A stretch of 36,476 nucleotides of DNA. Source: Patescibacteria group bacterium. Its GTDB lineage: Bacteria; Patescibacteriota; Minisyncoccia; UBA11713; 2-01-FULL-45-33. Shown here in pieces: positions 5,646 to 32,949 of this stretch. The notes beneath the pieces are model-generated. The model had not been told where the DNA came from. It saw nothing but the letters and a program-made list of their open reading frames with translations, and searched no databases. How positions within the stretch are numbered: the first letter of the stretch is position 1; each line of letters begins with the position of its first letter. The DNA lies in the NCBI GenBank assembly GCA_038062255.1, contig JBBTXM010000013.1:1-36476 (forward strand). The letters are read 5' to 3'. Position numbers and translations under genes: made by a program.

Positions 5646-7218
5646 GATCAGGATCGCCGCTTTTTTTGTTTTGGCGGTTTTTTTATTCATAGGTTTTAAG
5701 CTTTTTAATTTGCAGGTTTGGGACTCCAAACGATTCAAGGAGCTTTCTTCGGACCTAATATTTTCTCAAAATAGAATCGAAAAAAGAGGCGAAGTCTACT
5801 TTTCTCCGCAAGGCGGGCGTCCATCCACCGCGGCATCTACAAAAAAAGGATATTTGCTCTATATAAATCCTAAAATTTTAGAAGATTCAGCCTCGGCATT
5901 TTTGGCGCTAAGTTCTTTTTTTGCCTTGGATGAAGAAGATTTTTTCGCGAAATCGCAGAAAAAGAACGATCCCTTTGAAATTTTAAAAAAGAGGCTCGAA
6001 AACCAAGATTCTGAAATTGTAGAATCATGGAAAATAAAAGGAGTTGGAACCGTGGAAGATAAATGGCGGTTTTATCCTGGAGGATCCGCTGCCAGCCATG
6101 TCCTGGGATTTGCCGCTGAAAATGCCGGGGAGTGGGAGGGAAAATATGGTATTGAAAAATTTTACGAAAATGAACTATCTTCTGGCGAAGACGTGCATTT
6201 AACGATAGAGCCAAGTGTCCAGGTTTTTGCGGAGCTGGAACTTAAAAACTTTATGGAAAAATGGAACGGCGCGAGCGGCGGGGTTGCCGTAGTGAACCCC
6301 AAAAATGGCGATATTTTAGCCATGGCTGCTCTCCCGAATTTTGACCCGAACAAGTTTCAGGAAGAAAAGAACTTGCAAGTTTTTTTGAATCCTTTTTCTG
6401 AAAAAATCTTTGAACTTGGTTCAATAATGAAACCGATAACAATGGCATCGGCATTGGATTCCGGCAGCATCTCTCCCAATACAGAGTACTTTGACAAAGG
6501 TTTTGTGGAAGTGAGCGGAAAGCGTTTGAACAATTTTGACGGCAAAGGAAGGGGATTGCGCAACATGACGCAAGTTCTGGAGGAATCGCTCAACACTGGA
6601 GCGGTATTCGCGATGCAGCGCATGGGCAAGGAAACTTTCAGGGACTATTTGCTCAAATTTGGATTTGGGCAAAAAACGGGAATAGATTTGCCCGGAGAAA
6701 TAAAAAGCAACTTAAGAAATTTGGATTCTGGTAGAGAGATTGAGTTTGCCACAGCTTCTTTTGGTCAGGGAATCGCCGTTACTCCGATTTCAATGATTTC
6801 GGCTCTTAGCGCGCTGGCAAATGGCGGCAAAGTGGTTTTTCCGCATCTTAAGGTTCTGGATTCAAAGAGCCAGGAAGGGGCGGAAGCAATAAGCGAAAAG
6901 GCATCGCAAAATATTTCCAAAATACTTGTCGATGTGGTGGATAATACTTTAGCCGGCGGAACTGCTAAAATAGATGGATACAGCATTGCCGCAAAGACCG
7001 GAACCGCTCAAATTCCGGATTATAAAAACGGCGGGTACGGGGATGAATTTCTCCATTCGTTTTTCGGGTATTTCCCCGCATATGACGCGAAATTTCTCAT
7101 ATTTTTATTTTTGGAGAAACCTGTGGGGGTTCGTTATGCTTCACAAACTCTTACAGAACCATTCACAAACATTACAAAATTTCTTATAAATTATTATACG
7201 GTTCCTCCGGATAGATAG
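5608..7218 (+). CDS. ftsI: Peptidoglycan D,D-transpeptidase FtsI (class B PBP)
   Basis: It has an N-terminal TM segment and the motifs SxxK (GSIMKP), SxN (ESLNTG) and KTG (AAKTGTAQ), and sits in the dcw position. Confidence 0.9.
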   Translation: MWQESHNRLSTNRIRIAAFFVLAVFLFIGFKLFNLQVWDSKRFKELSSDLIFSQNRIEKRGEVYFSPQGGRPSTAASTKKGYLLYINPKILEDSASAFLALSSFFALDEEDFFAKSQKKNDPFEILKKRLENQDSEIVESWKIKGVGTVEDKWRFYPGGSAASHVLGFAAENAGEWEGKYGIEKFYENELSSGEDVHLTIEPSVQVFAELELKNFMEKWNGASGGVAVVNPKNGDILAMAALPNFDPNKFQEEKNLQVFLNPFSEKIFELGSIMKPITMASALDSGSISPNTEYFDKGFVEVSGKRLNNFDGKGRGLRNMTQVLEESLNTGAVFAMQRMGKETFRDYLLKFGFGQKTGIDLPGEIKSNLRNLDSGREIEFATASFGQGIAVTPISMISALSALANGGKVVFPHLKVLDSKSQEGAEAISEKASQNISKILVDVVDNTLAGGTAKIDGYSIAAKTGTAQIPDYKNGGYGDEFLHSFFGYFPAYDAKFLIFLFLEKPVGVRYASQTLTEPFTNITKFLINYYTVPPDR

Positions 7219-7219
7219 C

Positions 7220-8503
7220 ATGATAAAAAATATGATAAAAAAAATTTTGGTATGGGAAGCAAAAGTTGCTTTGGCGCGCCACAAACCGCGCATAATCGGC
7301 ATTACTGGTTCGGTTGGCAAATCTTCCGCAAAAGGACTTATCGCCTGTGTTTTGGATAAAAGATTTAATGTCAGAGAAAGCCCCAAAAGCTACAATAGCG
7401 AAATTGGGCTTGCGCTTTCTATTTTAGGTTTGCCGACTTATTATAATAATTTTTGGGGTTGGCCAATGAATATAATAAAAGGATTTTTTGAAATTTGGAA
7501 TAAAAAATTTCCAGAAATTTTGGTGCTTGAAATGGGCGTGGACCGTCCCAAGGATTTTGATAGGCTTTTGGAAATTGCGCGGCCGGATATTGCCGTTGTT
7601 ACCGCGATTGGCGAGATCCCTGTGCATGTGGAATTTTTTTCGGGCCCGGAAGAAATCGCCCAGGAAAAATCAAAAATAATAAAATATTTGCCGGCAGACG
7701 GGCACGCAATTTTAAATTTCGATGATGACGTCGTTTGGAGCATGCATGAAAAGACCAAGGCGCATATCGTAAGTTACGGATTTGGCGAACATGCGGATTT
7801 TCTGGCTTCAAATTACAAGGCTACTATTGAGGGTTTAACGTTCAAAATGGACCACGAAGGTTCGTCGGTGCCAGCTAATCTTAAAAAAGTTTTGGGCAAA
7901 CATAATGTTTATCCTGCTCTTTCGGCTTTTGCTGTAGGGAAAATATTCGGGCTGAATTTGATAGACATATCCGAGTATCTTTCGCTGTGCGAATTTCCTC
8001 CCGGCAGGATGAGGCTTTTGGAAGGAATAAAAGAAAGCCGAGTGATAGACGATTCTTACAATTCTTCGCCGATTGCCTCGCATGCCGCTTTGGATACCCT
8101 GGGAGAGCTTGAAGCCAACCTGCCCGACGGCAAGGCGGGAAGAAAAATCGTGGTATTCGGCGATATGCTCGAAATCGGCAAATATACAATCGAGGCTCAC
8201 AGGGCAATGGGCGAAAAAGTTTCAAAAATCGCCGATTATCTTTTTACTGTCGGACCGCGCTCTAAATTTGTTTCAGAGGAGGCGCTGGAATTGGGCATGC
8301 CAAAAGAAAATATTTTTAACTTTTCAACGTCAAAAGAAGCTACACAAACCATAAAAAATTTGATTGAAGAAGGGGATTTGATTTTGGTGAAGGGTTCCCA
8401 GGGAATGCGAATGGAGCGCATTGTTGAAGAAATAATGGCGCATCCCGAAGATGCAGAAAAACTCCTAGTCCGACAAGACGAATACTGGAAAAAGAAAGAA
8501 TAA
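7220..8503 (+). CDS. murF: UDP-N-acetylmuramoyl-tripeptide--D-alanyl-D-alanine ligase
   Basis: It has the Mur-ligase P-loop GITGSVGKSS plus DDSYNSSP and VVFGDMLEIG, which are typical of MurF. Confidence 0.9.
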   Translation: MIKNMIKKILVWEAKVALARHKPRIIGITGSVGKSSAKGLIACVLDKRFNVRESPKSYNSEIGLALSILGLPTYYNNFWGWPMNIIKGFFEIWNKKFPEILVLEMGVDRPKDFDRLLEIARPDIAVVTAIGEIPVHVEFFSGPEEIAQEKSKIIKYLPADGHAILNFDDDVVWSMHEKTKAHIVSYGFGEHADFLASNYKATIEGLTFKMDHEGSSVPANLKKVLGKHNVYPALSAFAVGKIFGLNLIDISEYLSLCEFPPGRMRLLEGIKESRVIDDSYNSSPIASHAALDTLGELEANLPDGKAGRKIVVFGDMLEIGKYTIEAHRAMGEKVSKIADYLFTVGPRSKFVSEEALELGMPKENIFNFSTSKEATQTIKNLIEEGDLILVKGSQGMRMERIVEEIMAHPEDAEKLLVRQDEYWKKKE

Positions 8504-8531
8504 AATGTTATTTTAATTTTAAATTAACTTA

Positions 8532-8606
8532 GCTCTCATCGTCTAGCCTGGTCTAGGACACACGGTTCTCATCCGTGGAACACCGGTTCAAATCCGGTTG
8601 AGAGCG
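8532..8606 (+). tRNA. tRNA-Glu (anticodon CUC)
   Basis: The cloverleaf folds by hand: acceptor GCTCTCA/TGAGAGC, anticodon stem CACGG/CCGTG with loop TTCTCAT, and T-arm ACCGG-TTCAAAT-CCGGT. No CCA is encoded. Confidence 0.9.
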
Positions 8607-8608
8607 CA

Positions 8609-8935
8609 TTATTTCTCCTCCTCTTTTTTATGCATGTGCAAAATTATGCCTTTTTGCGCCACCAGAGAAATACTGTAGAGGGTAAGGGTTGTGGATAAAA
8701 TAATAAAAACTATTGTGAAAATTTTAGAAATTTCGTGGGAAGGAGTCAAGTCTCCGTAACCGACAGTCGATGCTGTGGATACGGCAAAATAAAGCGAATT
8801 TATAAGGCTCCAGCCTTCTGTGGAACGATAGAACAAAGCTGCCGCTGAAATTATCACGGCAAGCAAAAATAGCGAAAGTTTAAGGCGCAATTCTATATGT
8901 TTATGGTTATTGTGGATACGAAATGATTCCGCCAT
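8609..8935 (-). CDS. Minimal two-TM potassium channel (pore-only)
   Basis: The 108-aa product has a TM segment, a pore helix, the selectivity filter TVGYGD, and a second TM segment. No RCK or ligand domain is present. Confidence 0.8.
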   Translation of the reverse strand: MAESFRIHNNHKHIELRLKLSLFLLAVIISAAALFYRSTEGWSLINSLYFAVSTASTVGYGDLTPSHEISKIFTIVFIILSTTLTLYSISLVAQKGIILHMHKKEEEK

Positions 8936-8988
8936 GTCTATATAATGATACCATAATTATTTTAGTTGCGTTATAAATATCAAAGACA

Positions 8989-9462
8989 ATGATAAAACGA
9001 GGGTTCATAATTTTAATAACCGCCTTTTTTGCTCTGTTTTTGACGGCGGTATTTAAAAAATCCGGTGATTTGTTTTTGGAGTCATCGGCGTATCGGGCTT
9101 CTTCCGGGCAGAAAATGATTGTTAATATTTCCGGGCGCAAAGTAGAAGTTGACATAGCCAACAACGAAAAGGAAAGAAATAAGGGCCTTGGCGGAAGAAA
9201 AAATTTGCCTGAAGATTCCGGAATGCTTTTTATTTTTGAGATTCCCGCAAAATACTCTTTCTGGATGAAGGATATGCGGTTTCCAATAGATATAATTTGG
9301 ATAGAAGAAAACAAAAAAATTACGGCGATTTCGGAAAATATTGCTCCGGAAACTTATCCCGCGTCTTTTTCGCCATCCGAGCCGGTAAAGTATGTTCTTG
9401 AGGTAAACGCCGGCTGGGCGGATAAAAACGGAGTGAAATCGGGGGATTCTATTGAATGGTAA
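8989..9462 (+). CDS. DUF192-family protein with N-terminal membrane anchor
   Basis: The product contains GLGGRKNLPEDSGMLFIF..FWMKDMRFPIDIIWI..YVLEVNAGW, which matches the DUF192/COG1430 pattern. Confidence 0.75.
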   Translation: MIKRGFIILITAFFALFLTAVFKKSGDLFLESSAYRASSGQKMIVNISGRKVEVDIANNEKERNKGLGGRKNLPEDSGMLFIFEIPAKYSFWMKDMRFPIDIIWIEENKKITAISENIAPETYPASFSPSEPVKYVLEVNAGWADKNGVKSGDSIEW

Positions 9463-10030
9463 TATTTTCAATTACCACCCCCTCAATCGGTATTCCCATT
9501 TGGTCAACTTTGACTTTTGCGATTGCGTCCACAACTTCCATTCCAGAAATTACTTTTCCAAAAACCGGGTGTTTGCTTTCGATTGGTTCTTTGTCGTAAT
9601 CGAGTCCTATGTTGTCAGCGAGGTTTATAAAAAACTGGCTTCCTCCGGAGTTGGGCCTGCCGGTATTGGCCATGGAAATTGTCCCGCGGACATTGGAAAG
9701 ACCCTCGACAAATTCGTCTTCTATGGTGTATCCTGGCCCTCCTCTTCCATAAGATACTTTGTCTGTTCCTTTGGAATTCGGGTCTCCTCCTTGTATTACA
9801 AATCCCTGAATTACTCTGTGGAATTTTGTTCCGTCAAAAAAACCTTCTTCAGCCAATTTGATGAAATTGCCGGCGGTCTTCGGCATTTCGTTCAAAAACA
9901 ATTCAAGAGTTATATTGCCATTGTTTGTTTTCAGGATTACTGTTGGATTTGGCCCGTCTTTTTTAAACATAAAAAATAATGCTATTCCGATAATCGCTAT
10001 TGCAATCAAAACTATTAATTTTTTCACCAC
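9449..10030 (-). CDS. Cyclophilin-type peptidyl-prolyl cis-trans isomerase, membrane-anchored
   Basis: The product contains FHRVIQGFVIQGGDP..GTISMANTGRPNSGGSQFFI. It has a GTG start and an N-terminal TM segment. Confidence 0.9.
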   Translation of the reverse strand: MVKKLIVLIAIAIIGIALFFMFKKDGPNPTVILKTNNGNITLELFLNEMPKTAGNFIKLAEEGFFDGTKFHRVIQGFVIQGGDPNSKGTDKVSYGRGGPGYTIEDEFVEGLSNVRGTISMANTGRPNSGGSQFFINLADNIGLDYDKEPIESKHPVFGKVISGMEVVDAIAKVKVDQMGIPIEGVVIENITIQ

Positions 10031-14847: not shown

Positions 14848-14889
14848 TGATTCTAGACTAGCACTTATTATGTTTTGGGTCAATTAAAA

Positions 14890-14921
14890 CCAGAAAATCC
14901 GCCCAATGGCGGGTTTTCTGG
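14890..14921 (-). terminator. Hairpin plus U-tract terminating the upstream small RNA
   Basis: On the minus strand, CCAGAAAACCCGCC pairs with GGCGGAUUUUCUGG (14 bp, one mismatch) and is followed by UUUUAAUU. The stem includes the encoded CCA of the RNA. Confidence 0.6.
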
Positions 14922-15106
14922 TGTGGATCGAGGGGGAGTTGAACCCCAAAAAGCAAACTGGCTAGGATGCTCCCAGAACCCTCTGGAACTCGACCCTCGT
15001 CCACTAAATTAGCTTATCAAAATGTTTACAAAAACGACAAAGGACTCCGTTAAAGAGCCCTTTGGAGCGCCAGAAGTTCTATTCATAGCACCCTAGCCAG
15101 TCTTAT
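14919..15106 (-). ncRNA. Unclassified structured small RNA with a tRNA-like (tmRNA-TLD-like) 3' domain
   Basis: It has its own promoter and terminator, the T-arm GGGG-UUCAACU-CCCC, a 3' end ..GAUCCACACCA, and a 15-bp long-range helix (15101-15087 with 14971-14957). That helix has a G.U pair only when read on the minus strand. See findings. Confidence 0.6.
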
Positions 15107-15111
15107 TTTCC

Positions 15112-15139
15112 ATTGTACTCTTTATATTATTGCTGTCAA
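15112..15139 (-). promoter_or_regulatory. Sigma70-type promoter for the small RNA
   Basis: On the minus strand, TTGACA (15139-15134) is followed by a 16-nt spacer and then TACAAT (15117-15112). Confidence 0.55.
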
Positions 15140-15157
15140 TAGTTGGTGTGGATAAGA

Positions 15158-16465
15158 TTAGGACAAAGTTTTTCTGTGCGATTTTCTATAGTGCTTTATC
15201 GCGAATCTATGGGCTTCGGAGTCCAGGTTCAATAACAAATTTCTAAGGGGCGAGGGGATAGCGTTTAACGGCATGGGGTCTTTTTTGTCGGAAATATAGA
15301 TATGGTCGCCAATGTGTTTTTTATTTTTGGTTAAAGCGATGATCTTAACCTCACCCCCTCGTACTGCATTTAACTGCTGTTTCCCGCCGTCGACTAAAAT
15401 AACTTCCGGTAACGGCCATTCTTTATGCGAGAGCCTCCTACTAATTATTTCTTTGAGCATTGCTACGTCGTTTGCCCCGGTAACGGTTTTTATTTTAAAA
15501 ATTCTGTATAAATCTTTTGCCGGAGCGCCGTCGATAAATACCACCATCGAGCCGTAGGCATATTTTCCTTGGATATTGGCTATGTCGTACGCTTCTATTC
15601 TTTTTATATTTTCGATTTTTAAAATTGACTCGAAGTGGCGCAAAGCCTTTTGGGATTCCGCAATATTGTCTTTCGATACTATTTCTTTATGCGCGAAAAC
15701 TTTTTCCAAAGCGCGGATTTGATTGCGGATTTTCCCAGCCTCCTCGTATTTTTGTGCGGACGATAATTTTTTCATTTCTTTTTTGAGGGTTTTCAATAGA
15801 GATTTATTTTTGCCGGTGAGAATTTTTTTTATTGAAGAGATGTTTGATTTGTAAACCTCACCCCCTCGTTCCCCCTCTCCTTCGTAAGGAGAGGGGGAGG
15901 GGGGAGAGGATATCATTCCCTTCTCCTTACGAAGGAGAAGGGTTTGGGATGAGGTTAAGCAACAAAACCCCAAACACTTCCCAATTCTTGCGTTAAGACA
16001 CAGGTTTTTATGCACCCTTTTACATGTGCAATAGGGAAAAGCCCGGCGAAGAAGTTTTAAAACAGATTTTATTGCCCCACCGTCTGTAAATGGGCCTATG
16101 TAATCTGGGCCATTTGGGGTCTGGTGAGTTAGGTATATTCTGGGGTATTCTTCTTTTGTAAATGCGGCGAAAAAATATTGCTTGTCGTCGCGCATTAAAA
16201 CATTGTATTTGGGCGAGTGTTTTTTTATAAGTTCAGATTCTTTGATAAGCGCTTCTGTTTCTGAATTTAAGATTTCCCACGAAACGGCCGAAGCTTCTTT
16301 CAGCAAAGACTTAGTTTTGAGGGAAGCTTGATTTTTTTGGAAATACGAATTTAGGCGGGCTTTTAAATTATTCGCTTTGCCCACGTATAAAATTTTGCCC
16401 TTAGAATTTCTGAAAAAATAGACTCCGGGAGATTGGGGCGCTTTTTGTTGCATTTTTACCGGCAT
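15158..16465 (-). CDS. uvrC: Excinuclease ABC subunit C, short form lacking the C-terminal (HhH)2 domain and carrying an in-frame palindromic insert
   Basis: It has a GIY-YIG domain (GVYFFRNSKGKILYVGKANNLKARLNSYF), a UVR motif (KYEEAGKIRNQIRALE) and an endonuclease domain (RIEAYDIANIQG..LVDGGKQQL). It stops just after RFAIKHYRKSHRK. Confidence 0.9.
   Translation of the reverse strand: MPVKMQQKAPQSPGVYFFRNSKGKILYVGKANNLKARLNSYFQKNQASLKTKSLLKEASAVSWEILNSETEALIKESELIKKHSPKYNVLMRDDKQYFFAAFTKEEYPRIYLTHQTPNGPDYIGPFTDGGAIKSVLKLLRRAFPYCTCKRVHKNLCLNARIGKCLGFCCLTSSQTLLLRKEKGMISSPPSPSPYEGEGERGGEVYKSNISSIKKILTGKNKSLLKTLKKEMKKLSSAQKYEEAGKIRNQIRALEKVFAHKEIVSKDNIAESQKALRHFESILKIENIKRIEAYDIANIQGKYAYGSMVVFIDGAPAKDLYRIFKIKTVTGANDVAMLKEIISRRLSHKEWPLPEVILVDGGKQQLNAVRGGEVKIIALTKNKKHIGDHIYISDKKDPMPLNAIPSPLRNLLLNLDSEAHRFAIKHYRKSHRKTLS
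15854..15955. repeat. GC-rich nested-palindrome element (MITE/RPE-like) inserted in frame in uvrC
   Basis: The terminal inverted repeat is AACCTCACCCC (left) with GGGATGAGGTT (right). Two internal perfect hairpins are present: CCCCCTCTCCTT-CGT-AAGGAGAGGGGG and CCCTTCTCCTT-ACG-AAGGAGAAGGG. The 102 nt equal 34 codons. Confidence 0.8.
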
Positions 16466-29595: not shown

Positions 29596-31305
29596 ATGTC
29601 TTCACAGATTGAAGATGTCAAAAGCCGCGTCGACGTGGTTGATTTATTGGGTTCATATTTAAAACTCCAGAAGGCTGGAGTTAATTTTAAGGCGCGCTGT
29701 CCTTTTCATAATGAAAAAACTGCTTCTTTTTTTGTAAGCCCTGCAAGGCAGATTTGGCATTGTTTTGGGTGCCAAAAAGGAGGGGATGTTTTCAAATTTA
29801 TAATGGAAATCGACGGCTGCGAGTTTAAGGAAGCCCTTCTGTCGCTTGCAGGGCGCGCCGGAATTGAACTCAAAAGAGAATCTCCAGAAATCCAAGACGC
29901 AAAATCAAAGGAGTTTGCTATTTTGGAAGAATCGACGAAGTTTTTTGAAAAAAATCTTTTTGAAAACAATGAAGCTTCAGAATATTTAAAAAATCGCGGA
30001 CTTTCTGTTGAAACTATCAAAGAATTTCGACTCGGTTATTCTTTGGATGACTGGAGAACATTATTTAATCATCTTTCAGCTCAAGGACACAAAGCCGAAG
30101 ATGCGGAAAAAGCAGGGTTAATTATAAAATCGGAAAATAGTTATTATGATAGGTTTAGGGGAAGAATTATTTTTCCTATATTCAATCAGTCCGGAAAAGT
30201 TGTCGCGTTTGGAGGACGATTGTTTGTCGATTCTTCTGGAGGAAAGTCGGCCAAGTATGTTAATTCTCCGGAAACCGCGCTTTATCAAAAAAGCAAAATT
30301 TTGTATGGACTGCATAAATCAAAAATAGAAATCTTGCGAGAAAATTCATGCGTCTTAGTTGAGGGATATATGGATTTTTTGAGCGCTTACCAGGCGGGTA
30401 CCAAAAATATGGTCGCGGTTTCCGGCACCGCTTTAACTTTAGACCATCTTAAAATTTTAAGCCGAATTTGCGAGAAATTGATAGTATCTTTCGATATGGA
30501 CGAGGCCGGAGAGGGCGCCACCAGGCGGGGGATTGATTCGGCTCTAAAAGAAGGACTTGATATTAAAGTAATCAAGTTACCGGATGGCTTCAAGGATCCG
30601 TCGGAGGCTATTTCCGCCGACCCGAAATTTTGGGCCGACTCTTTACTTGGCGCCCGCCACATAGTACAATTTTACATTGATTCGGCTCAAAAGAAGTTTT
30701 TGGCCGGTTCTCCGGAATTAAGCCGGGAGATACAACGAAGTGTTTTGCCCGCGGTAGCTTCATTAAGTTCCGATTTGGAACAAGCCCATTGGGTAAGGGA
30801 AATTACCGCGATTTTAAATATAAAAGAAGAAGTGGTGTGGGGCGCTCTTGGTAAAATCCGAAATCATAAATCTGAAATTCTAAATAATCCAGAAATCCTA
30901 AATGCTAAAAAATCTCAAACCAGGAAAGAGCTTTTAGAAAACAGGGTTTTGGGAATTGCCGCCAAGTACCCGGAACTTTTGGGAAAACAATCGGCGGATT
31001 TAGAACCGTCGTTGTTTTCTGGAGACAAGCAAACGGCTTTTGCCGAAATTCGTAATGGGTCTGGCGGGGGATTGAAGGACTTTATATCACGCTTGGTTTT
31101 GGAGGCCGAGCTGTTTTTGGAAGGAGTGGAGAACGCGGAAGCGGAATTTATAAAATGCGCAAGAGAGCTTAATCGCGAGCATGTAAAGGAACAAATGAGT
31201 TTGCTTTCGGCAAAAATAAGCTATGCCGAAAAAAATAAAAAAGAAAATATGCCTTCGCTTTTGGCGGAATTTAAAAATTTATCGGATAAGATAAATAAAA
31301 TATGA
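29596..31305 (+). CDS. dnaG: DNA primase
   Basis: It has the zinc finger [21 protein letters not shown] and the TOPRIM motifs [18 protein letters not shown]. Confidence 0.95.
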
Positions 31306-32486
31306 AAAAAAAGAAAGTGAAAAAACTAAAGCCCAAAAAAATTAAAAAAGCCAAAAAAGTTTTACACAAAAAGGTTTCTAAAAAGCTGAAGCCGGTTCCA
31401 ACCGGAAAGGTTACAAAAAGCCAGCTAAAGGAAGAATTTTCAGAAGAAAGAGTTGGGGCGATTTTAAAAAAAGGCAAGGACCGCGGATTTATAACATACG
31501 CCGAAATTTTAAGCGCTTTTCCCCATATTGAACACAACATAATTTTTTTGGAGGATTTGTATTCAAGATTCGAAGCTGCCGGAGTTGATATTTTGGAAGC
31601 CAAAGAATTTTTGGATTTGGGAGATAAAACAAAAGGGCCGAAAAAAGAAGAAGAATTTTTTGCCGATTCCGTCCAAATGTACCTAAAAGAAATCGGCCGC
31701 ATACCACTATTGAAAGGCGAAGAAGAAAGGGAACTGGCAAAAAGAATAGAGCAGGGCGACAAAGACGCCAAAAACAAGTTGGCGCAGGCAAACTTGAGGC
31801 TCGTAGTTTCCATAGCCAAAAAATATGTTGGCCGTTCGCCTAATCTTACGCTTTTGGATTTGATTCAAGAGGGAACTCTAGGCCTTTTCCGCGCGGTTGA
31901 AAAATTTGATTGGAGAAGAGGATACAAATTTTCCACTTATGCCACTTGGTGGATACGGCAGGCGATAACCAGGGCTTTGGCAGACCAAGCCCGCACTATC
32001 CGAATACCTGTGCACATGGTTGAAACAATTTCAAAATACCAACAGGTGCGACGCCGTCTTATTCAGGATTTGGGCAGGGATCCTTTAGCTGAAGAAATTG
32101 CTTCCGAGATGAATATAGATGTGGAAAAAGTCCACCATATCCAGCAAATTTCCCAGGAAACCGTATCGCTTGAGGCTCCGGTTGGCGAAGACGACGAAGA
32201 TTCGGTGCTTGGGGATTTTATAGAAGATGAAAAAACCCTTTCTCCCGCTCAAGAAGCTTCGCGCAAGCTTTTAAAAGACCACTTGAAGGAAATAATGATT
32301 GATTTAGCTCCTAGAGAACAGAAAATTCTCCGCATGCGTTTCGGTTTGGACGATGGAATTACCCACACCCTAGAGGAAGTTGGCGCGGAATTCGGAGTAA
32401 CCCGCGAGAGAATCCGCCAGATTGAAGCAAAAGCTTTGGAAAAGATCCGCCAGCACGACAAGATTATAAAACTTCAGGGATATTAA
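31302..32486 (+). CDS. rpoD: Primary RNA polymerase sigma factor RpoD with a poly-lysine N-terminal extension
   Basis: Region 2 is [36 protein letters not shown] and region 4.2 is [19 protein letters not shown]. It has an ATGA overlap with dnaG. Confidence 0.95.
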
Positions 32487-32490
32487 AATC

Positions 32491-32522
32491 AAACACTCCC
32501 CGACCGCGGTCGGGGAGTGTTT
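32491..32522. terminator. Bidirectional terminator between the convergent rpoD and RRM genes
   Basis: A perfect 14-bp stem pairs AAACACTCCCCGAC with GTCGGGGAGTGTTT around a 4-nt loop, with A-runs and T-runs on either side. Confidence 0.7.
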
Positions 32523-32541
32523 GAAATCTCTGATATAACGC

Positions 32542-32841
32542 TTACCAGCTGTTTTGCCTTCGGAATCCCCCCCCTGTTCGCGGGGGTCTCGCTTCCATTG
32601 GGCGAGCTTCGTTGACCGTTATTTTTCGGCCCTCGAATTCTGTTCCATTGAACATTTCGATAGCTTTTTGAGCTTCGTCGTCATTTGCCATTTCCACAAA
32701 ACCAAAGCCTTTTGACCTGCCAGTCATTTTATCCATTATGACTGTGGCGGTATCAACAGAGCCTGCTTGTGAAAACAAGCCTTTCAAAGATTCCTCGGAG
32801 GTGCTGTAAGAAAGCCCTCCAACGTATAATTTCTTTGCCAT
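32542..32841 (-). CDS. RRM-type RNA-binding protein with Arg/Gly-rich tail
   Basis: From the ATG at 32841 the product reads MAKKLYVGGLSY (RNP-2) ..KGFGFVEM (RNP-1) ..RPPRTGGGFRRQ. Confidence 0.85.
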   Translation of the reverse strand: MAKKLYVGGLSYSTSEESLKGLFSQAGSVDTATVIMDKMTGRSKGFGFVEMANDDEAQKAIEMFNGTEFEGRKITVNEARPMEARPPRTGGGFRRQNSW

Positions 32842-32949
32842 TTGTATTGTCAAAAAATTGCTAAAAAGAGTAAGTCGACCAACCAATGCTTATTAAAACG
32901 AAATAAGTTGCTTACTATAAAATAAGAATACTCTTTTGTGGAAAGAAAG

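What the first reader, a model, noticed from the sequence alone, without database searches (positions are those of the whole stretch)
15854..15955. A 102-bp GC-rich nested palindrome is inserted in frame inside uvrC, similar to Rickettsia palindromic elements
The sequence is AACCTCACCCC-CTCGTT-[CCCCCTCTCCTT-CGT-AAGGAGAGGGGG]-AGGGGGGAGAGGATATCATT-[CCCTTCTCCTT-ACG-AAGGAGAAGGG]-TTT-GGGATGAGGTT. Its structure has three levels:
- Terminal inverted repeats match at 10 of 11 positions.
- There are two internal perfect hairpins, of 12 bp and 11 bp.
- The two hairpins are inverted copies of each other (loop CGT against ACG), so the whole element is one long imperfect palindrome.

The element is far more GC-rich than the surrounding gene. 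On the coding (minus) strand it adds exactly 34 codons (TSSQTLLLRKEKGMISSPPSPSPYEGEGERGGEV). These fall between the Cys-rich segment (..CLGFCCL) and the ..YKSNISSIKKILTGK.. helix, a place where canonical UvrC proteins are contiguous (C-x-G-x-C..eeY...v..L.G). The reading frame is preserved.

This is the behaviour described for Rickettsia palindromic elements, which colonise ORFs in frame. I saw no second full copy in this window.
Basis: partly seen in the sequence, partly recalled or inferred. Interest (0 to 1): 0.65.

Follow-up and report, generated by a model that had tools for sequence, protein, structure and literature searches.

The report
Triplex-type palindromic repeat inside uvrC
A 103-bp G/C-rich palindrome sits in frame in the DNA-repair gene uvrC of a groundwater candidate-phyla-radiation (CPR) bacterium; it is a copy of a widespread hairpin/triple-helix-forming repeat family of the BoxC/PIT kind, translated as a floppy protein loop much as Rickettsia palindromic elements are.

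Summary
A nested palindrome at 15854-15956 (103 bp, not 102) lies in frame in a short UvrC of a Giovannonibacteria-like CPR bacterium. An independent assembly carries it unchanged.

The Rickettsia palindromic element (RPE) comparison describes the behaviour, not the identity.
- **Structure.** The element is two inverted units of an intrastrand-triplex motif repeat: pyrimidine arm, loop, purine arm, loop, mirror-image G-rich third strand. Triads are 12/12 and 11/11 compatible. This is the class published as BoxC/PIT/TM_ECO, but a different sequence family.
- **Distribution.** The same core and tail occur in Cyanobacteria, CPR, Bacteroidota, Armatimonadota, Chloroflexota and viral contigs, mostly between genes.
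- **In-frame copies.** They sit in Dus, TsaE, FemAB, UvrD, GcvP and UvrA.
- **Orthologues.** The closest UvrC orthologues lack the element. Others carry intact, variant or eroded copies at the same linker and at a second site. This window keeps only a 16-nt tail there (15347-15362).
- **Protein.** AlphaFold2 scores the insert as low confidence.

Most likely this is a translated passenger repeat in a permissive linker. How it spreads is unknown. I rate it a new variant of a known kind.

The parts
15158..16465 (-). Host gene: short UvrC (435 aa) with GIY-YIG, Cys motif, UVR and RNase H-like endonuclease domains. It has no C-terminal HhH2 domain.
   Evidence: ORF. Pfam: GIY-YIG 13-88, UVR 221-255, UvrC_RNaseH 281-423. 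5763 homologues, the best-named being Candidatus Giovannonibacteria/Paceibacterota. An independent Hainich groundwater assembly, L125, has the gene with 0 of 1308 mismatches.
15854..15956 (.). Composite 103-bp palindromic element. It encodes residues T171-V204 (TSSQTLLLRKEKGMISSPPSPSPYEGEGERGGEV) plus one base of the L170 codon.
   Evidence: GC is 0.563 against 0.394 for the rest of the gene. Only 1 of 3 frames is stop-free in this orientation, and 2 of 6 overall.
15854..15897 (-). Triplex-motif unit A on the coding strand. Read 5'->3' on the minus strand: Y arm CCCCCTCTCCTT (15897-15886), loop ACG, R arm AAGGAGAGGGGG (15882-15871), loop AACGA, reverse-Hoogsteen domain GGGGGTGAGGTT (15865-15854).
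   Evidence: 12/12 Watson-Crick pairs and 12/12 purine-motif triads (G.GC, A.AT, T.AT). The same core plus tail occurs in L001 and L002 and across phyla.
15918..15956 (+). Triplex-motif unit B on the non-coding strand: Y arm CCCTTCTCCTT (15918-15928), loop ACG, R arm AAGGAGAAGGG (15932-15942), loop TTT, reverse-Hoogsteen domain GGGATGAGGTT (15946-15956).
   Evidence: 11/11 pairs and 11/11 triads. The G-to-A change in the arm is mirrored by a G-to-A change in the tail.
15873..15910 (+). Second third-strand option for hairpin 1 on the plus strand: CCCTCTCCT / AGGAGAGGG / GGGAGAGGA, 9 triads. This makes unit A a symmetric ('palindromic') triplex motif.
   Evidence: Found by an ITxF-like scan with 0 mismatches. 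Only 3 of 60 Markov-simulated windows had any hit of this size.
15911..15917 (.). Spacer TATCATT between the two units.
   Evidence: Read directly from the sequence.
15347..15362 (-). Remnant of another unit at UvrC 'site 2', after DGGKxQLxA. Only loop 2 plus the third-strand tail survive (minus strand ACGAGGGGGTGAGGTT, encoding RGGEV).
   Evidence: 16-nt exact repeat of the element terminus. Orthologue L002 has the complete 55-60-nt unit at this exact position; ours lacks 45 nt, which is 15 codons. L123 keeps what looks like the opposite half.

Best explanation
The element is a composite of two units of a dispersed, G/C-rich palindromic repeat family. It has the anatomy of a class II purine-motif intrastrand-triplex motif: pyrimidine arm, loop, purine arm, loop, mirror-image G/A/T third strand.

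A copy, or two nested or adjacent copies, became fixed in the flexible linker between the Cys motif and the UVR (UvrB-binding) domain of uvrC. Only an insertion that kept the frame and avoided stop codons could survive. It is now transcribed and translated as a Pro/Ser/Gly/Glu-rich, probably disordered, surface loop. It is a tolerated passenger, not a functional domain.

At the DNA level, single-stranded copies can fold into hairpins or triplexes. That makes them unstable, so copies erode by in-frame partial deletion. This explains the tail-only remnant at site 2 and the assorted intact, variant and decayed copies in orthologues.

**Shown:** the anatomy, family membership, presence/absence among orthologues, in-frame copies in other genes, and identity across independent assemblies.

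**Inferred:** triplex or hairpin formation in the cell, translation of the insert, neutrality, and the still unknown way the family spreads.
For: **Anatomy**
- Triads are 12/12 and 11/11 compatible, with loops of 3-5 nt.

**Family**
- A capped scan of species-representative genomes gave 119 loci holding the same hairpin: 53 cyanobacterial, 17 CPR, plus Bacteroidota/Ignavibacteria, Armatimonadota, Chloroflexota and others.
- Forty-two stretches of viral contig DNA also hold it.
- 133 of 143 hairpins carry the ACCTCACC / GGTGAGGT tail on one or both sides.
- 144 of 375 strand-oriented units have a third strand that is at least 90% compatible, against 1 of 375 after shuffling.
- The arm position A/G co-varies with the mirrored tail position: 106/1/0/25, Fisher 4e-26. 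These sequences are not phylogenetically independent.
- 78 of the tailed hairpins have a tail on one side only, so that tail has no complementary partner nearby to form an outer stem with.

**Literature**
- BoxC/PIT/TM_ECO are conserved, abundant repeats with conserved stems and variable loops. They occur singly or as inverted pairs, form a triplex in vitro, and are locally unstable. They are also abundant in cyanobacteria (PMC4666352).

**Insertion and erosion**
- Orthologues at 70-80% identity have unrelated 10-13 aa linkers.
- P0010, P0014, P0016, P0025, P0031, P0032, P0035 and P0036 carry family members at the same spot.
- P0011 has a full unit at site 2, where this window keeps 16 nt.

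**Other in-frame hosts**
- Dus, TsaE, FemAB (twice), UvrD, GcvP and a Ser/Thr kinase.
- UvrA in L001 and L168.

**Not an artefact**
- The gene is identical in assembly L125.

**Structure**
- The insert has AlphaFold2 pLDDT of about 39-56, with residues 183-201 below 50. It lies between the Cys motif and the UVR helices.
Against: - No mobilising enzyme, target-site duplication or autonomous parent element was found.
- A RAYT-like Y1 transposase occurs in only 2 of 169 loci and is flanked by different hairpins.
- The window holds no other copy outside uvrC, and the rest of the source genome could not be scanned.
- Identical 23-nt cores at the same linker in UvrCs only about 60% identical could also mean selection on the DNA, or a strong target preference, rather than neutral passengers.
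- TM_ECO did not show a stable triplex in vivo (PMC4666352).
- The published TM_ECO consensus itself does not match.
- Translation of the insert is untested.
Confidence: 0.72

Rival explanations
1. The structure is a selected cis-acting element, not a passenger. The hairpin/triplex DNA, or the SD-like AAGGAG hairpins in the mRNA, would tune uvrC replication, transcription, mRNA stability or translational pausing between domains. The linker sequence would then be kept by selection at the nucleic-acid level.
For: The identical core CCCTCTCCTTACGAAGGAGAGGG occurs at the same linker in UvrCs only about 60% identical. The two-hairpin architecture (CGT loop, then ACG loop) recurs with different stem sequences in P0016, P0025 and P0031. 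Family inserts recur in uvrA, uvrC and uvrD. REPs have also been reported inside uvr, rec and pol genes (PMC3733652).
Against: The distribution is patchy: the nearest orthologues (70-80% identity) lack it, and others hold eroded halves. The same motif is mostly intergenic elsewhere and sits in unrelated genes. PIT/TM elements showed no promoter, terminator or expression effect in E. coli (PMC4666352).
Confidence: 0.12
2. The palindrome arose locally by slippage, template switching or low-complexity expansion within an R.Y-rich linker. It would not be a copy of a dispersed element.
For: The region is low-complexity purine/pyrimidine. Neither a target-site duplication nor a transposase was found.
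Against: Near-identical cores plus tails occur at other sites in the same gene, in other genes and in other phyla. Template switching does not produce the mirror symmetry between arm and tail. The element's terminus is repeated exactly at site 2.
Confidence: 0.07
3. It is a true member or homologue of the Rickettsia palindromic element (RPE) families.
For: The behaviour is the same: a palindromic repeat of about 100 bp translated in frame within a housekeeping gene.
Against: The host is a CPR bacterium. The element is G/C-rich R.Y triplex-type and belongs to a family shared with cyanobacteria and others. According to Di Nocera et al., RPE-4 and RPE-6 are CGTC-tagged REPs; the units examined here carry no such tag next to the core hairpin.
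Confidence: 0.02
4. It is an assembly or sequencing artefact, such as a chimeric join or a hairpin-induced error.
For: Palindromes can cause assembly errors. The source is a metagenome.
Against: The exact protein is recorded on 3 contigs. An independent assembly of a Hainich groundwater sample has the gene with 0 of 1308 mismatches. The frame is intact, and related elements occur in many other assemblies and in isolate genomes.
Confidence: 0.02

Closest known systems
BoxC / PIT elements / TM_ECO intrastrand-triplex motif repeats (Bachellier 1990s; Hoyne & Maher 2000; Holder et al. 2015, PMC4666352)
   Same: Both have class II purine-motif order (Y arm, loop, R arm, loop, reverse-Hoogsteen G-rich strand). 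Both are G/C-rich with stems of 9-12 nt and loops of 3-6 nt. Stems are conserved and loops variable. Copies occur singly or as inverted pairs on opposite strands. Both are present in many genomes, including cyanobacteria. Copies are often partly deleted.
   Different: The stem sequences differ: CCCCTCTCCTT / AAGGAGAGGGG / GGGGTGAGGTT against CCCTCNCCC / GGGNGAGGG / GGGNGAGGG. The TM_ECO pattern has no match in the window or in 169 loci. The hosts here are CPR, Cyanobacteria, Bacteroidota, Armatimonadota and Chloroflexota rather than Proteobacteria. TM_ECO is 'always intergenic' in E. coli, whereas here copies are translated in frame. Holder et al. found no link to phages, whereas this family occurs in 42 stretches of viral contig DNA.
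Rickettsia palindromic elements (RPE; Ogata et al. 2000)
   Same: Both are palindromic repeats of roughly 100 bp inserted in frame into conserved genes at permissive sites and translated as extra peptide segments. In both cases several families colonise the same small genome.
   Different: The host phylum differs. No sequence relationship has been shown. This element has G/C-rich R.Y triplex-type anatomy and belongs to a family that spans phyla.
REP/REPIN elements, including intragenic REPs in DNA-repair genes (Di Nocera et al. 2013, PMC3733652; Bertels & Rainey 2011, PMC3116915)
   Same: Both are short palindromes with a conserved unpaired flank. They occur as single units and inverted dimers. 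Intragenic copies have been reported in uvrA, uvrB, uvrD, recBCD and polA, encoding 20-30 aa.
   Different: This family has no GTAG/CGTC tag; its conserved flank is an 11-nt mirror of the stem. No RAYT is associated in the window, only a distant RAYT-like gene in 2 related loci.
Bacterial MITEs (Nezha, Correia, RUP, ERIC)
   Same: Both are small, non-coding, strongly folding repeats with apparent terminal inverted repeats. Both show filled and empty sites among relatives.
   Different: This family has no consistent target-site duplication and no parent IS with matching ends. Units are shorter (45-60 nt). Many copies have only one 'terminal repeat'.
H-DNA-forming homopurine/homopyrimidine mirror repeats
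   Same: The R arm plus tail is a 22-24-nt purine-rich mirror repeat.
   Different: Here the mirror repeat is embedded in an inverted repeat, and it is a dispersed family rather than a simple tract.

Membership tests
Intrastrand-triplex motif repeats (class II purine motif; ITxF definition, Holder 2015) | Order Y arm, loop, R arm, loop, third strand on one DNA strand; stems 6-15 nt; loops 1-6 nt; at most 1 mismatched triad (G.GC, A.AT, T.AT) | tested here: met
   Minus strand 15854-15897: 12/12 triads, loops 3 and 5. Plus strand 15918-15956: 11/11 triads, loops 3 and 3. Plus strand 15873-15910: 9/9 triads.
Intrastrand-triplex motif repeats (class II purine motif; ITxF definition, Holder 2015) | Repeated and conserved across genomes, with conserved stems and variable loops | tested here: met
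Loops vary while stems and tails are conserved. The tail mirrors the arm: 106/1/0/25.
Intrastrand-triplex motif repeats (class II purine motif; ITxF definition, Holder 2015) | Actually folds into a triplex (CD/NMR in vitro) | not testable with these tools
   Only sequence compatibility could be computed. TM_ECO was shown to fold in vitro but not in vivo (PMC4666352).
TM_ECO / BoxC sequence family | Consensus CCCTCNCCC N3-6 GGGNGAGGG N3 GGGNGAGGG | tested here: not met
   0 matches in the window and in 169 loci. No blastn match to E. coli genomes.
TM_ECO / BoxC sequence family | Intergenic location | tested here: not met
   The element lies inside the uvrC ORF, in frame.
Rickettsia palindromic elements | Resident in Rickettsia genomes | tested here: not met
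   The best-named homologues are Candidatus Giovannonibacteria/Paceibacterota. The source is groundwater.
Rickettsia palindromic elements | Sequence similarity to an RPE family consensus | not tested
   No RPE sequences or Rickettsia genomes were available in the collections still open to scanning.
Rickettsia palindromic elements | Palindromic repeat inserted in frame in ORFs, at several genes | tested here: met
   In frame in uvrC here. Family copies are in frame in UvrA, UvrD, Dus, TsaE, FemAB and GcvP in other genomes. The same-genome census could not be done.
REP / REPIN (RAYT-mobilised) | GTAG or CGTC tag next to the palindrome | tested here: not met
   The conserved flank is GGGGTGAGGTT / AACCTCACCCC. 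No tag is present in the units listed.
REP / REPIN (RAYT-mobilised) | Cognate RAYT gene in the genome, flanked by the repeats | tested here: inconclusive
   None in the window (tblastn). A distant RAYT-like gene lies in L169, with a homologue in L046. The L169 gene scored 36 bits against NCBIfam REP_Tyr_transpos (cut-off 80) and is flanked by different hairpins.
MITE | Terminal inverted repeats plus target-site duplication | tested here: inconclusive
   Apparent terminal repeats match at 10/11. L002 is flanked by CAA/CAA and ours by TTA/TTA, but there is no consistent duplication across 55 full copies, and 78 copies have only one 'end'.
MITE | Parent insertion sequence with the same ends | tested here: inconclusive
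   No recurrent transposase was found among 1656 ORFs around 119 loci; only kinases and ABC ATPases recurred. This was not a genome-wide search.

The most novel reading that the evidence does not exclude
This AAGGAGAGGGG/GGGGTGAGGTT triplex-hairpin family may be a still-active mobile DNA that crosses phyla and is carried by phages, moving through a folded single-stranded intermediate with an unidentified enzyme. In gene-dense CPR genomes it may persist preferentially inside nucleotide-excision-repair genes (uvrA, uvrC, uvrD). It might do so because it modulates, or escapes, the repair system that would otherwise process non-B DNA. That would make it a bacterial case of a structure-forming selfish element interacting with its own surveillance pathway.
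Probability: 0.12. Interest if true: 0.8.

Novelty: new variant of a known kind. Interest (0 to 1): 0.55.

Why it matters
Three things follow if this holds.
- **RPE-like colonisation outside Rickettsia.** In-frame colonisation of housekeeping genes by palindromic repeats also happens in the candidate phyla radiation. Several repeat families occupy the same UvrC and UvrA linkers there. This explains much of the length variation (400-510 aa) of these proteins. It also warns against reading such segments as domains or as markers of shared ancestry.
- **Triplex motifs inside genes.** Intrastrand-triplex motif repeats were described as strictly intergenic in E. coli. A distinct, cross-phylum sequence family of that class can be translated.
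- **A test system.** The filled, eroded and empty sites in uvrC orthologues give a natural series for studying how structure-prone DNA is gained and lost. They also allow a test of whether repair genes are favoured hosts, as was suspected earlier for REPs.

Tried and rejected
- **Rfam.** No family covers the element. Only sub-threshold miRNA-like hairpin hits appeared, and 11 other loci gave nothing relevant.
- **Literature search by sequence strings.** Nothing relevant.
- **Literature on CPR palindromic or in-frame repeats.** Nothing.
- **Elhai's cyanobacterial small dispersed repeats paper.** Not held in the library.
- **Neighbouring-gene association.** Clustering 1656 ORFs gave only kinases and ABC ATPases.
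- **Target-site duplication.** No consistent signal.
- **blastn against plasmids and E. coli genomes.** Two weak cyanobacterial plasmid hits and no E. coli hit; the low-complexity filter limits this test.
- **Peptide searches.**
  - A 56-aa concatenated query found no candidates.
  - HMMER of the 34-aa insert against 1.84 billion representatives returned only 4 unrelated repetitive proteins. Short units cannot reach significance there.
- **Family HMM on the window.** No copies outside uvrC.
- **RNA-level function.** Judged unlikely, because purine-motif triplexes do not form in RNA (statement in PMC4666352) and it is the stems, not the loops, that are conserved.
- **Intein or intron.** Rejected: 34 aa is too short for an intein, and there is no Rfam intron match.
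- **SD/anti-SD mimicry as the cause of cross-phylum conservation.** Considered but not supported beyond resemblance.
Full report
**1. The observation**

Window 15854-15956 reads AACCTCACCCC-CTCGTT-CCCCCTCTCCTT-CGT-AAGGAGAGGGGG-AGGGGGGAGAGGATATCATT-CCCTTCTCCTT-ACG-AAGGAGAAGGG-TTT-GGGATGAGGTT.

The repeat finder reports:
- a perfect 13-bp hairpin at 15870-15882/15886-15898;
- a perfect 11-bp hairpin at 15918-15928/15932-15942;
- 92% complementarity between the two 25-nt hairpin blocks;
- the outer inverted repeat.

Either strand folds far better than shuffled sequence. RNA gives z -6.1 and DNA z -6.9, and 0 of 200 shuffles do as well. The hairpin pattern has zero chance expectation in the window. 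The element is 56% GC against 39% for the rest of the gene.

The minus-strand ORF 15158-16465 (435 aa) reads through it as T171-V204. Pfam finds GIY-YIG, UVR and the UvrC RNase H-like endonuclease domain, so the gene is a short uvrC.

In this orientation only one of the three frames through the element is free of stop codons. The intact frame is therefore not automatic.

**2. Not an artefact; the host organism**

The exact protein is on three contigs. An independent assembly of a Hainich groundwater sample (L125) has the gene with 0 of 1308 mismatches. The best-named homologues are Candidatus Giovannonibacteria and Paceibacterota, which belong to the candidate phyla radiation (CPR).

**3. Orthologue comparison**

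I aligned 42 UvrC homologues.

*Site 1, the linker between CxGxCC and the invariant Tyr205.*
- It is 10-13 aa and unrelated in the closest relatives (70-80% identity: P0002-P0007, P0011).
- It is filled by related peptides in others:
  - P0010: PFLLTKEKSWSEIY
  - P0035 and P0036: SPLLTKERGWGEVY
  - P0014 and P0032: SPPYQGGDQGEVY
  - P0016, P0025 and P0031: LTPT..GLPLRKGEK...PFPLTKGEGGEVV
- Ours is the 34-aa version.
- The element therefore makes up the whole linker, a net gain of about 21-24 codons. It is not an insertion between contiguous residues.

*Site 2, after DGGKxQLxA.*
- P0011 carries PPLLTKERGRGGEV.
- Ours has only RGGEV.

*DNA of the orthologues.*
- L001 and L002 share the core CCCTCTCCTTACGAAGGAGAGGG with ours.
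- L124 has a decayed unit.
- At site 2, L002 has a complete unit: AACCTCTCCCCCC-AA-CCCCCTCTCCTT-ACG-AAGGAGAGGGGG-CGA-GGAGGTGAGGT.
- Ours lacks exactly 45 nt of that unit and keeps CGAGGGGGTGAGGTT.
- That remnant belongs to a 16-nt exact repeat of the site-1 terminus, at 15347-15362.
- L123 keeps what looks like the opposite (left) half.

The gene thus shows filled, eroded and empty states at two sites.

**4. The family is not lineage-specific**

- **Genomes.** Of these, 53 are cyanobacterial (Nostoc, Rivularia, Calothrix, Scytonema and others) and 17 are CPR. The rest are Bacteroidota/Ignavibacteria, Armatimonadota, Chloroflexota and others.
- **Flanks.** Of the 143 hairpins, 133 are flanked by ACCTCACC upstream and/or GGTGAGGT downstream, allowing one mismatch. 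55 have both, 33 the left only, 45 the right only, and 10 neither.
- **Viral contigs.** The motif also occurs in 42 stretches of IMG/VR viral contig DNA.
- **Databases and literature.** Rfam has no matching family. No paper contains the sequence strings.
- **Mobility clues.** No recurrent neighbouring gene was found, and no consistent target-site duplication.

**5. What the anatomy means**

The conserved tail is the mirror image, not the complement, of the hairpin's purine arm: AAGGAGAGGGG|GGGGTGAGGTT. Read antiparallel, every position gives an allowed purine-motif triad (G.GC, A.AT, T.AT).
- Minus strand 15854-15897: 12/12 triads.
- Plus strand 15918-15956: 11/11 triads.
- Plus strand 15873-15910: a third option with 9/9 triads.

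Across the family:
- 144 of 375 strand-oriented units have a third strand that is at least 90% compatible within 1-6 nt, against 1 of 375 after shuffling.
- The variable arm position co-varies with the mirrored tail position: 106/1/0/25, Fisher 4e-26. The sequences are related, so this reflects a few subfamily events rather than 132 independent ones.
- Hairpins with a tail on one side only have no partner nearby for an outer stem, so the tail is more than half of a helix.

This is the published class of intrastrand-triplex motif repeats: BoxC, rediscovered as PIT elements and later named TM_ECO (Holder et al. 2015, PMC4666352). According to that paper:
- the consensus is CCCTCNCCC N3-6 GGGNGAGGG N3 GGGNGAGGG;
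- there are 3610 copies in 262 proteobacterial genomes;
- G/C-rich motifs are also abundant in Microcystis, Anabaena and Nostoc;
- stems are more conserved than loops;
- units occur singly or as inverted pairs;
- the triplex forms in vitro but was not seen in vivo;
- copies are often deleted or mutated between strains;
- in E. coli they are always intergenic and not linked to mobile elements;
- purine-motif triplexes do not form in RNA, which points to a DNA-level property.

Our element fits the class definition. It does not match the TM_ECO sequence, so it is a different family of the same class.

The 103 bp is one symmetric unit (hairpin 1 with a tail on each strand) plus one half unit (hairpin 2 with its tail).

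**6. In-frame copies elsewhere**

Most cyanobacterial copies are intergenic; 4 of 53 cyanobacterial loci are genic. By contrast 7 of 17 CPR loci have the motif inside, or at the end of, a long ORF.

Pfam confirms real host genes:

| Host gene | Organism group | Locus |
|---|---|---|
| Dus | Nomurabacteria | L011 |
| TsaE | Giovannonibacteria | L032 |
| FemAB | Moranbacteria | L040, L046 |
| UvrD, which also holds an intein | Moranbacteria | L091 |
| GcvP | Runella | L083 |
| Ser/Thr kinase | Cyanobacteria | L062 (also tested: NB-ARC/TPR protein, L102) |
| M1 peptidase, C-terminus | Paceibacterota | L033 |

UvrA of L001 and L168 also carries family inserts: PSPLLTKEG, APLLVKEGKG..PSLRRRGGGEV and IPLLTKEGVGGGG.

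Other palindromic insert families occupy the same UvrC and UvrA linkers in relatives, for example AQVLQDLAQRDGASRAIRQQANMRVLAK. Colonising ORFs in frame, the hallmark of RPEs, is therefore real in this CPR clade.

**7. Protein context**

An AlphaFold2 model built from the 42-sequence alignment has mean pLDDT 73.8. The insert scores about 39-56, with residues 183-201 below 50. It lies between the Cys motif and the UVR helices. This is consistent with a disordered linker, although low confidence is weak evidence.

**8. Interpretation**

Best explanation (about 0.7): a translated passenger copy of a dispersed triplex/hairpin repeat sits in a permissive linker, kept in frame by purifying selection and prone to erosion.

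Rivals:
- **A selected cis-element (about 0.1).** Identical cores at the same spot in distant orthologues, and the recurrence in uvr genes, keep this alive.
- **Local de novo origin (under 0.1).**
- **RPE homology (very unlikely).**
- **Artefact (very unlikely).**

How the family spreads is unknown. One distant RAYT-like Y1 transposase lies next to uvrA in L169 and has a homologue in L046. The L169 gene is flanked by different hairpins and scores below the NCBIfam cut-off.

**9. Comparison and novelty**

Intragenic REPs, many of them in uvrA, uvrB, uvrD, recBCD and polA, and RPEs are already documented (PMC3733652; PMC3184786). Triplex-motif repeats are documented too (PMC4666352).

I found no description of the following:
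- this cross-phylum sequence family;
- its translation in frame inside conserved genes;
- RPE-like colonisation in CPR bacteria.

I therefore rate it a new variant of a known kind, of moderate interest.

Noticed in passing
window 14884-15157 (minus strand): The uvrC-secG spacer is 274 nt here, against 6-30 nt in L123 and L001. It folds very strongly (-102 kcal/mol, z -6.35). It ends in a tRNA-like T-arm/acceptor (GGGGUUCAACUCCCCCUCGAUCCACACCA) followed by a terminator-like hairpin. ARAGORN finds nothing and Rfam gives only weak tRNA-like hits. It may be an unclassified structured or tRNA-like RNA.
   Followed up: partly
window 32489-32524: A perfect 18+18-nt palindrome with no spacer (TCAAACACTCCCCGACCG/CGGTCGGGGAGTGTTTGA) lies between convergent ORFs 31302-32486(+) and 32542-32886(-). 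It may be a bidirectional terminator or another repeat.
   Followed up: no
L001 7138-7320; L003 1656-1835; L168 uvrA (6846-9854); UvrC proteins P0022, P0027, P0031, P0034, P0035: A second, unrelated insert family of about 90 nt encodes AQVLQDLAQRDGASRAIRQQANMRVLAK. By eye its DNA is an inverted repeat. It sits in frame at UvrC site 1 or site 2 and in the UvrA linker of relatives. Further recurrent insert peptides (FKNRLALPRNKS, GGSDASQK, STSSGQAE, KNYKLST) suggest several more families.
   Followed up: partly
L001 1104-1159 and 2267-2299; L168 8387-8420 (all inside uvrA): In about 93 kb of Giovannonibacteria loci outside uvrC, all three triplex-motif sites fall in uvrA, which is 12.6% of that DNA. 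Together with the UvrD copy in L091, this hints at a bias towards nucleotide-excision-repair genes.
   Followed up: partly
L169 6225-6872 (minus strand): A RAYT-like HUH/Y1 transposase (motifs NHFHLLL and YIHLNP; NCBIfam REP_Tyr_transpos E 5e-9, below the cut-off) lies between uvrA and an M16 peptidase gene in a Giovannonibacteria contig. It is flanked on both sides by a different short hairpin (..ACTTAGTTTCGGTCA). A homologue is in L046.
   Followed up: partly
L128 (IMG/VR contig, 7283 bp) 1908, 3753, 4409, 6608, 7217: One viral contig carries five copies of the half unit (AACCTCACCCCC-..-hairpin), all in the same orientation.
   Followed up: no
window 15158-16465 and homologues P0001-P0120: UvrC in this clade is only 400-510 aa. 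Pfam finds no C-terminal helix-hairpin-helix domain in the window's UvrC.
   Followed up: no
L091 833-4228: A Moranbacteria UvrD helicase carries both an intein (Intein_splicing/Hint) and an in-frame triplex-motif insert (DLTPSPSPYKGEGS).
   Followed up: no
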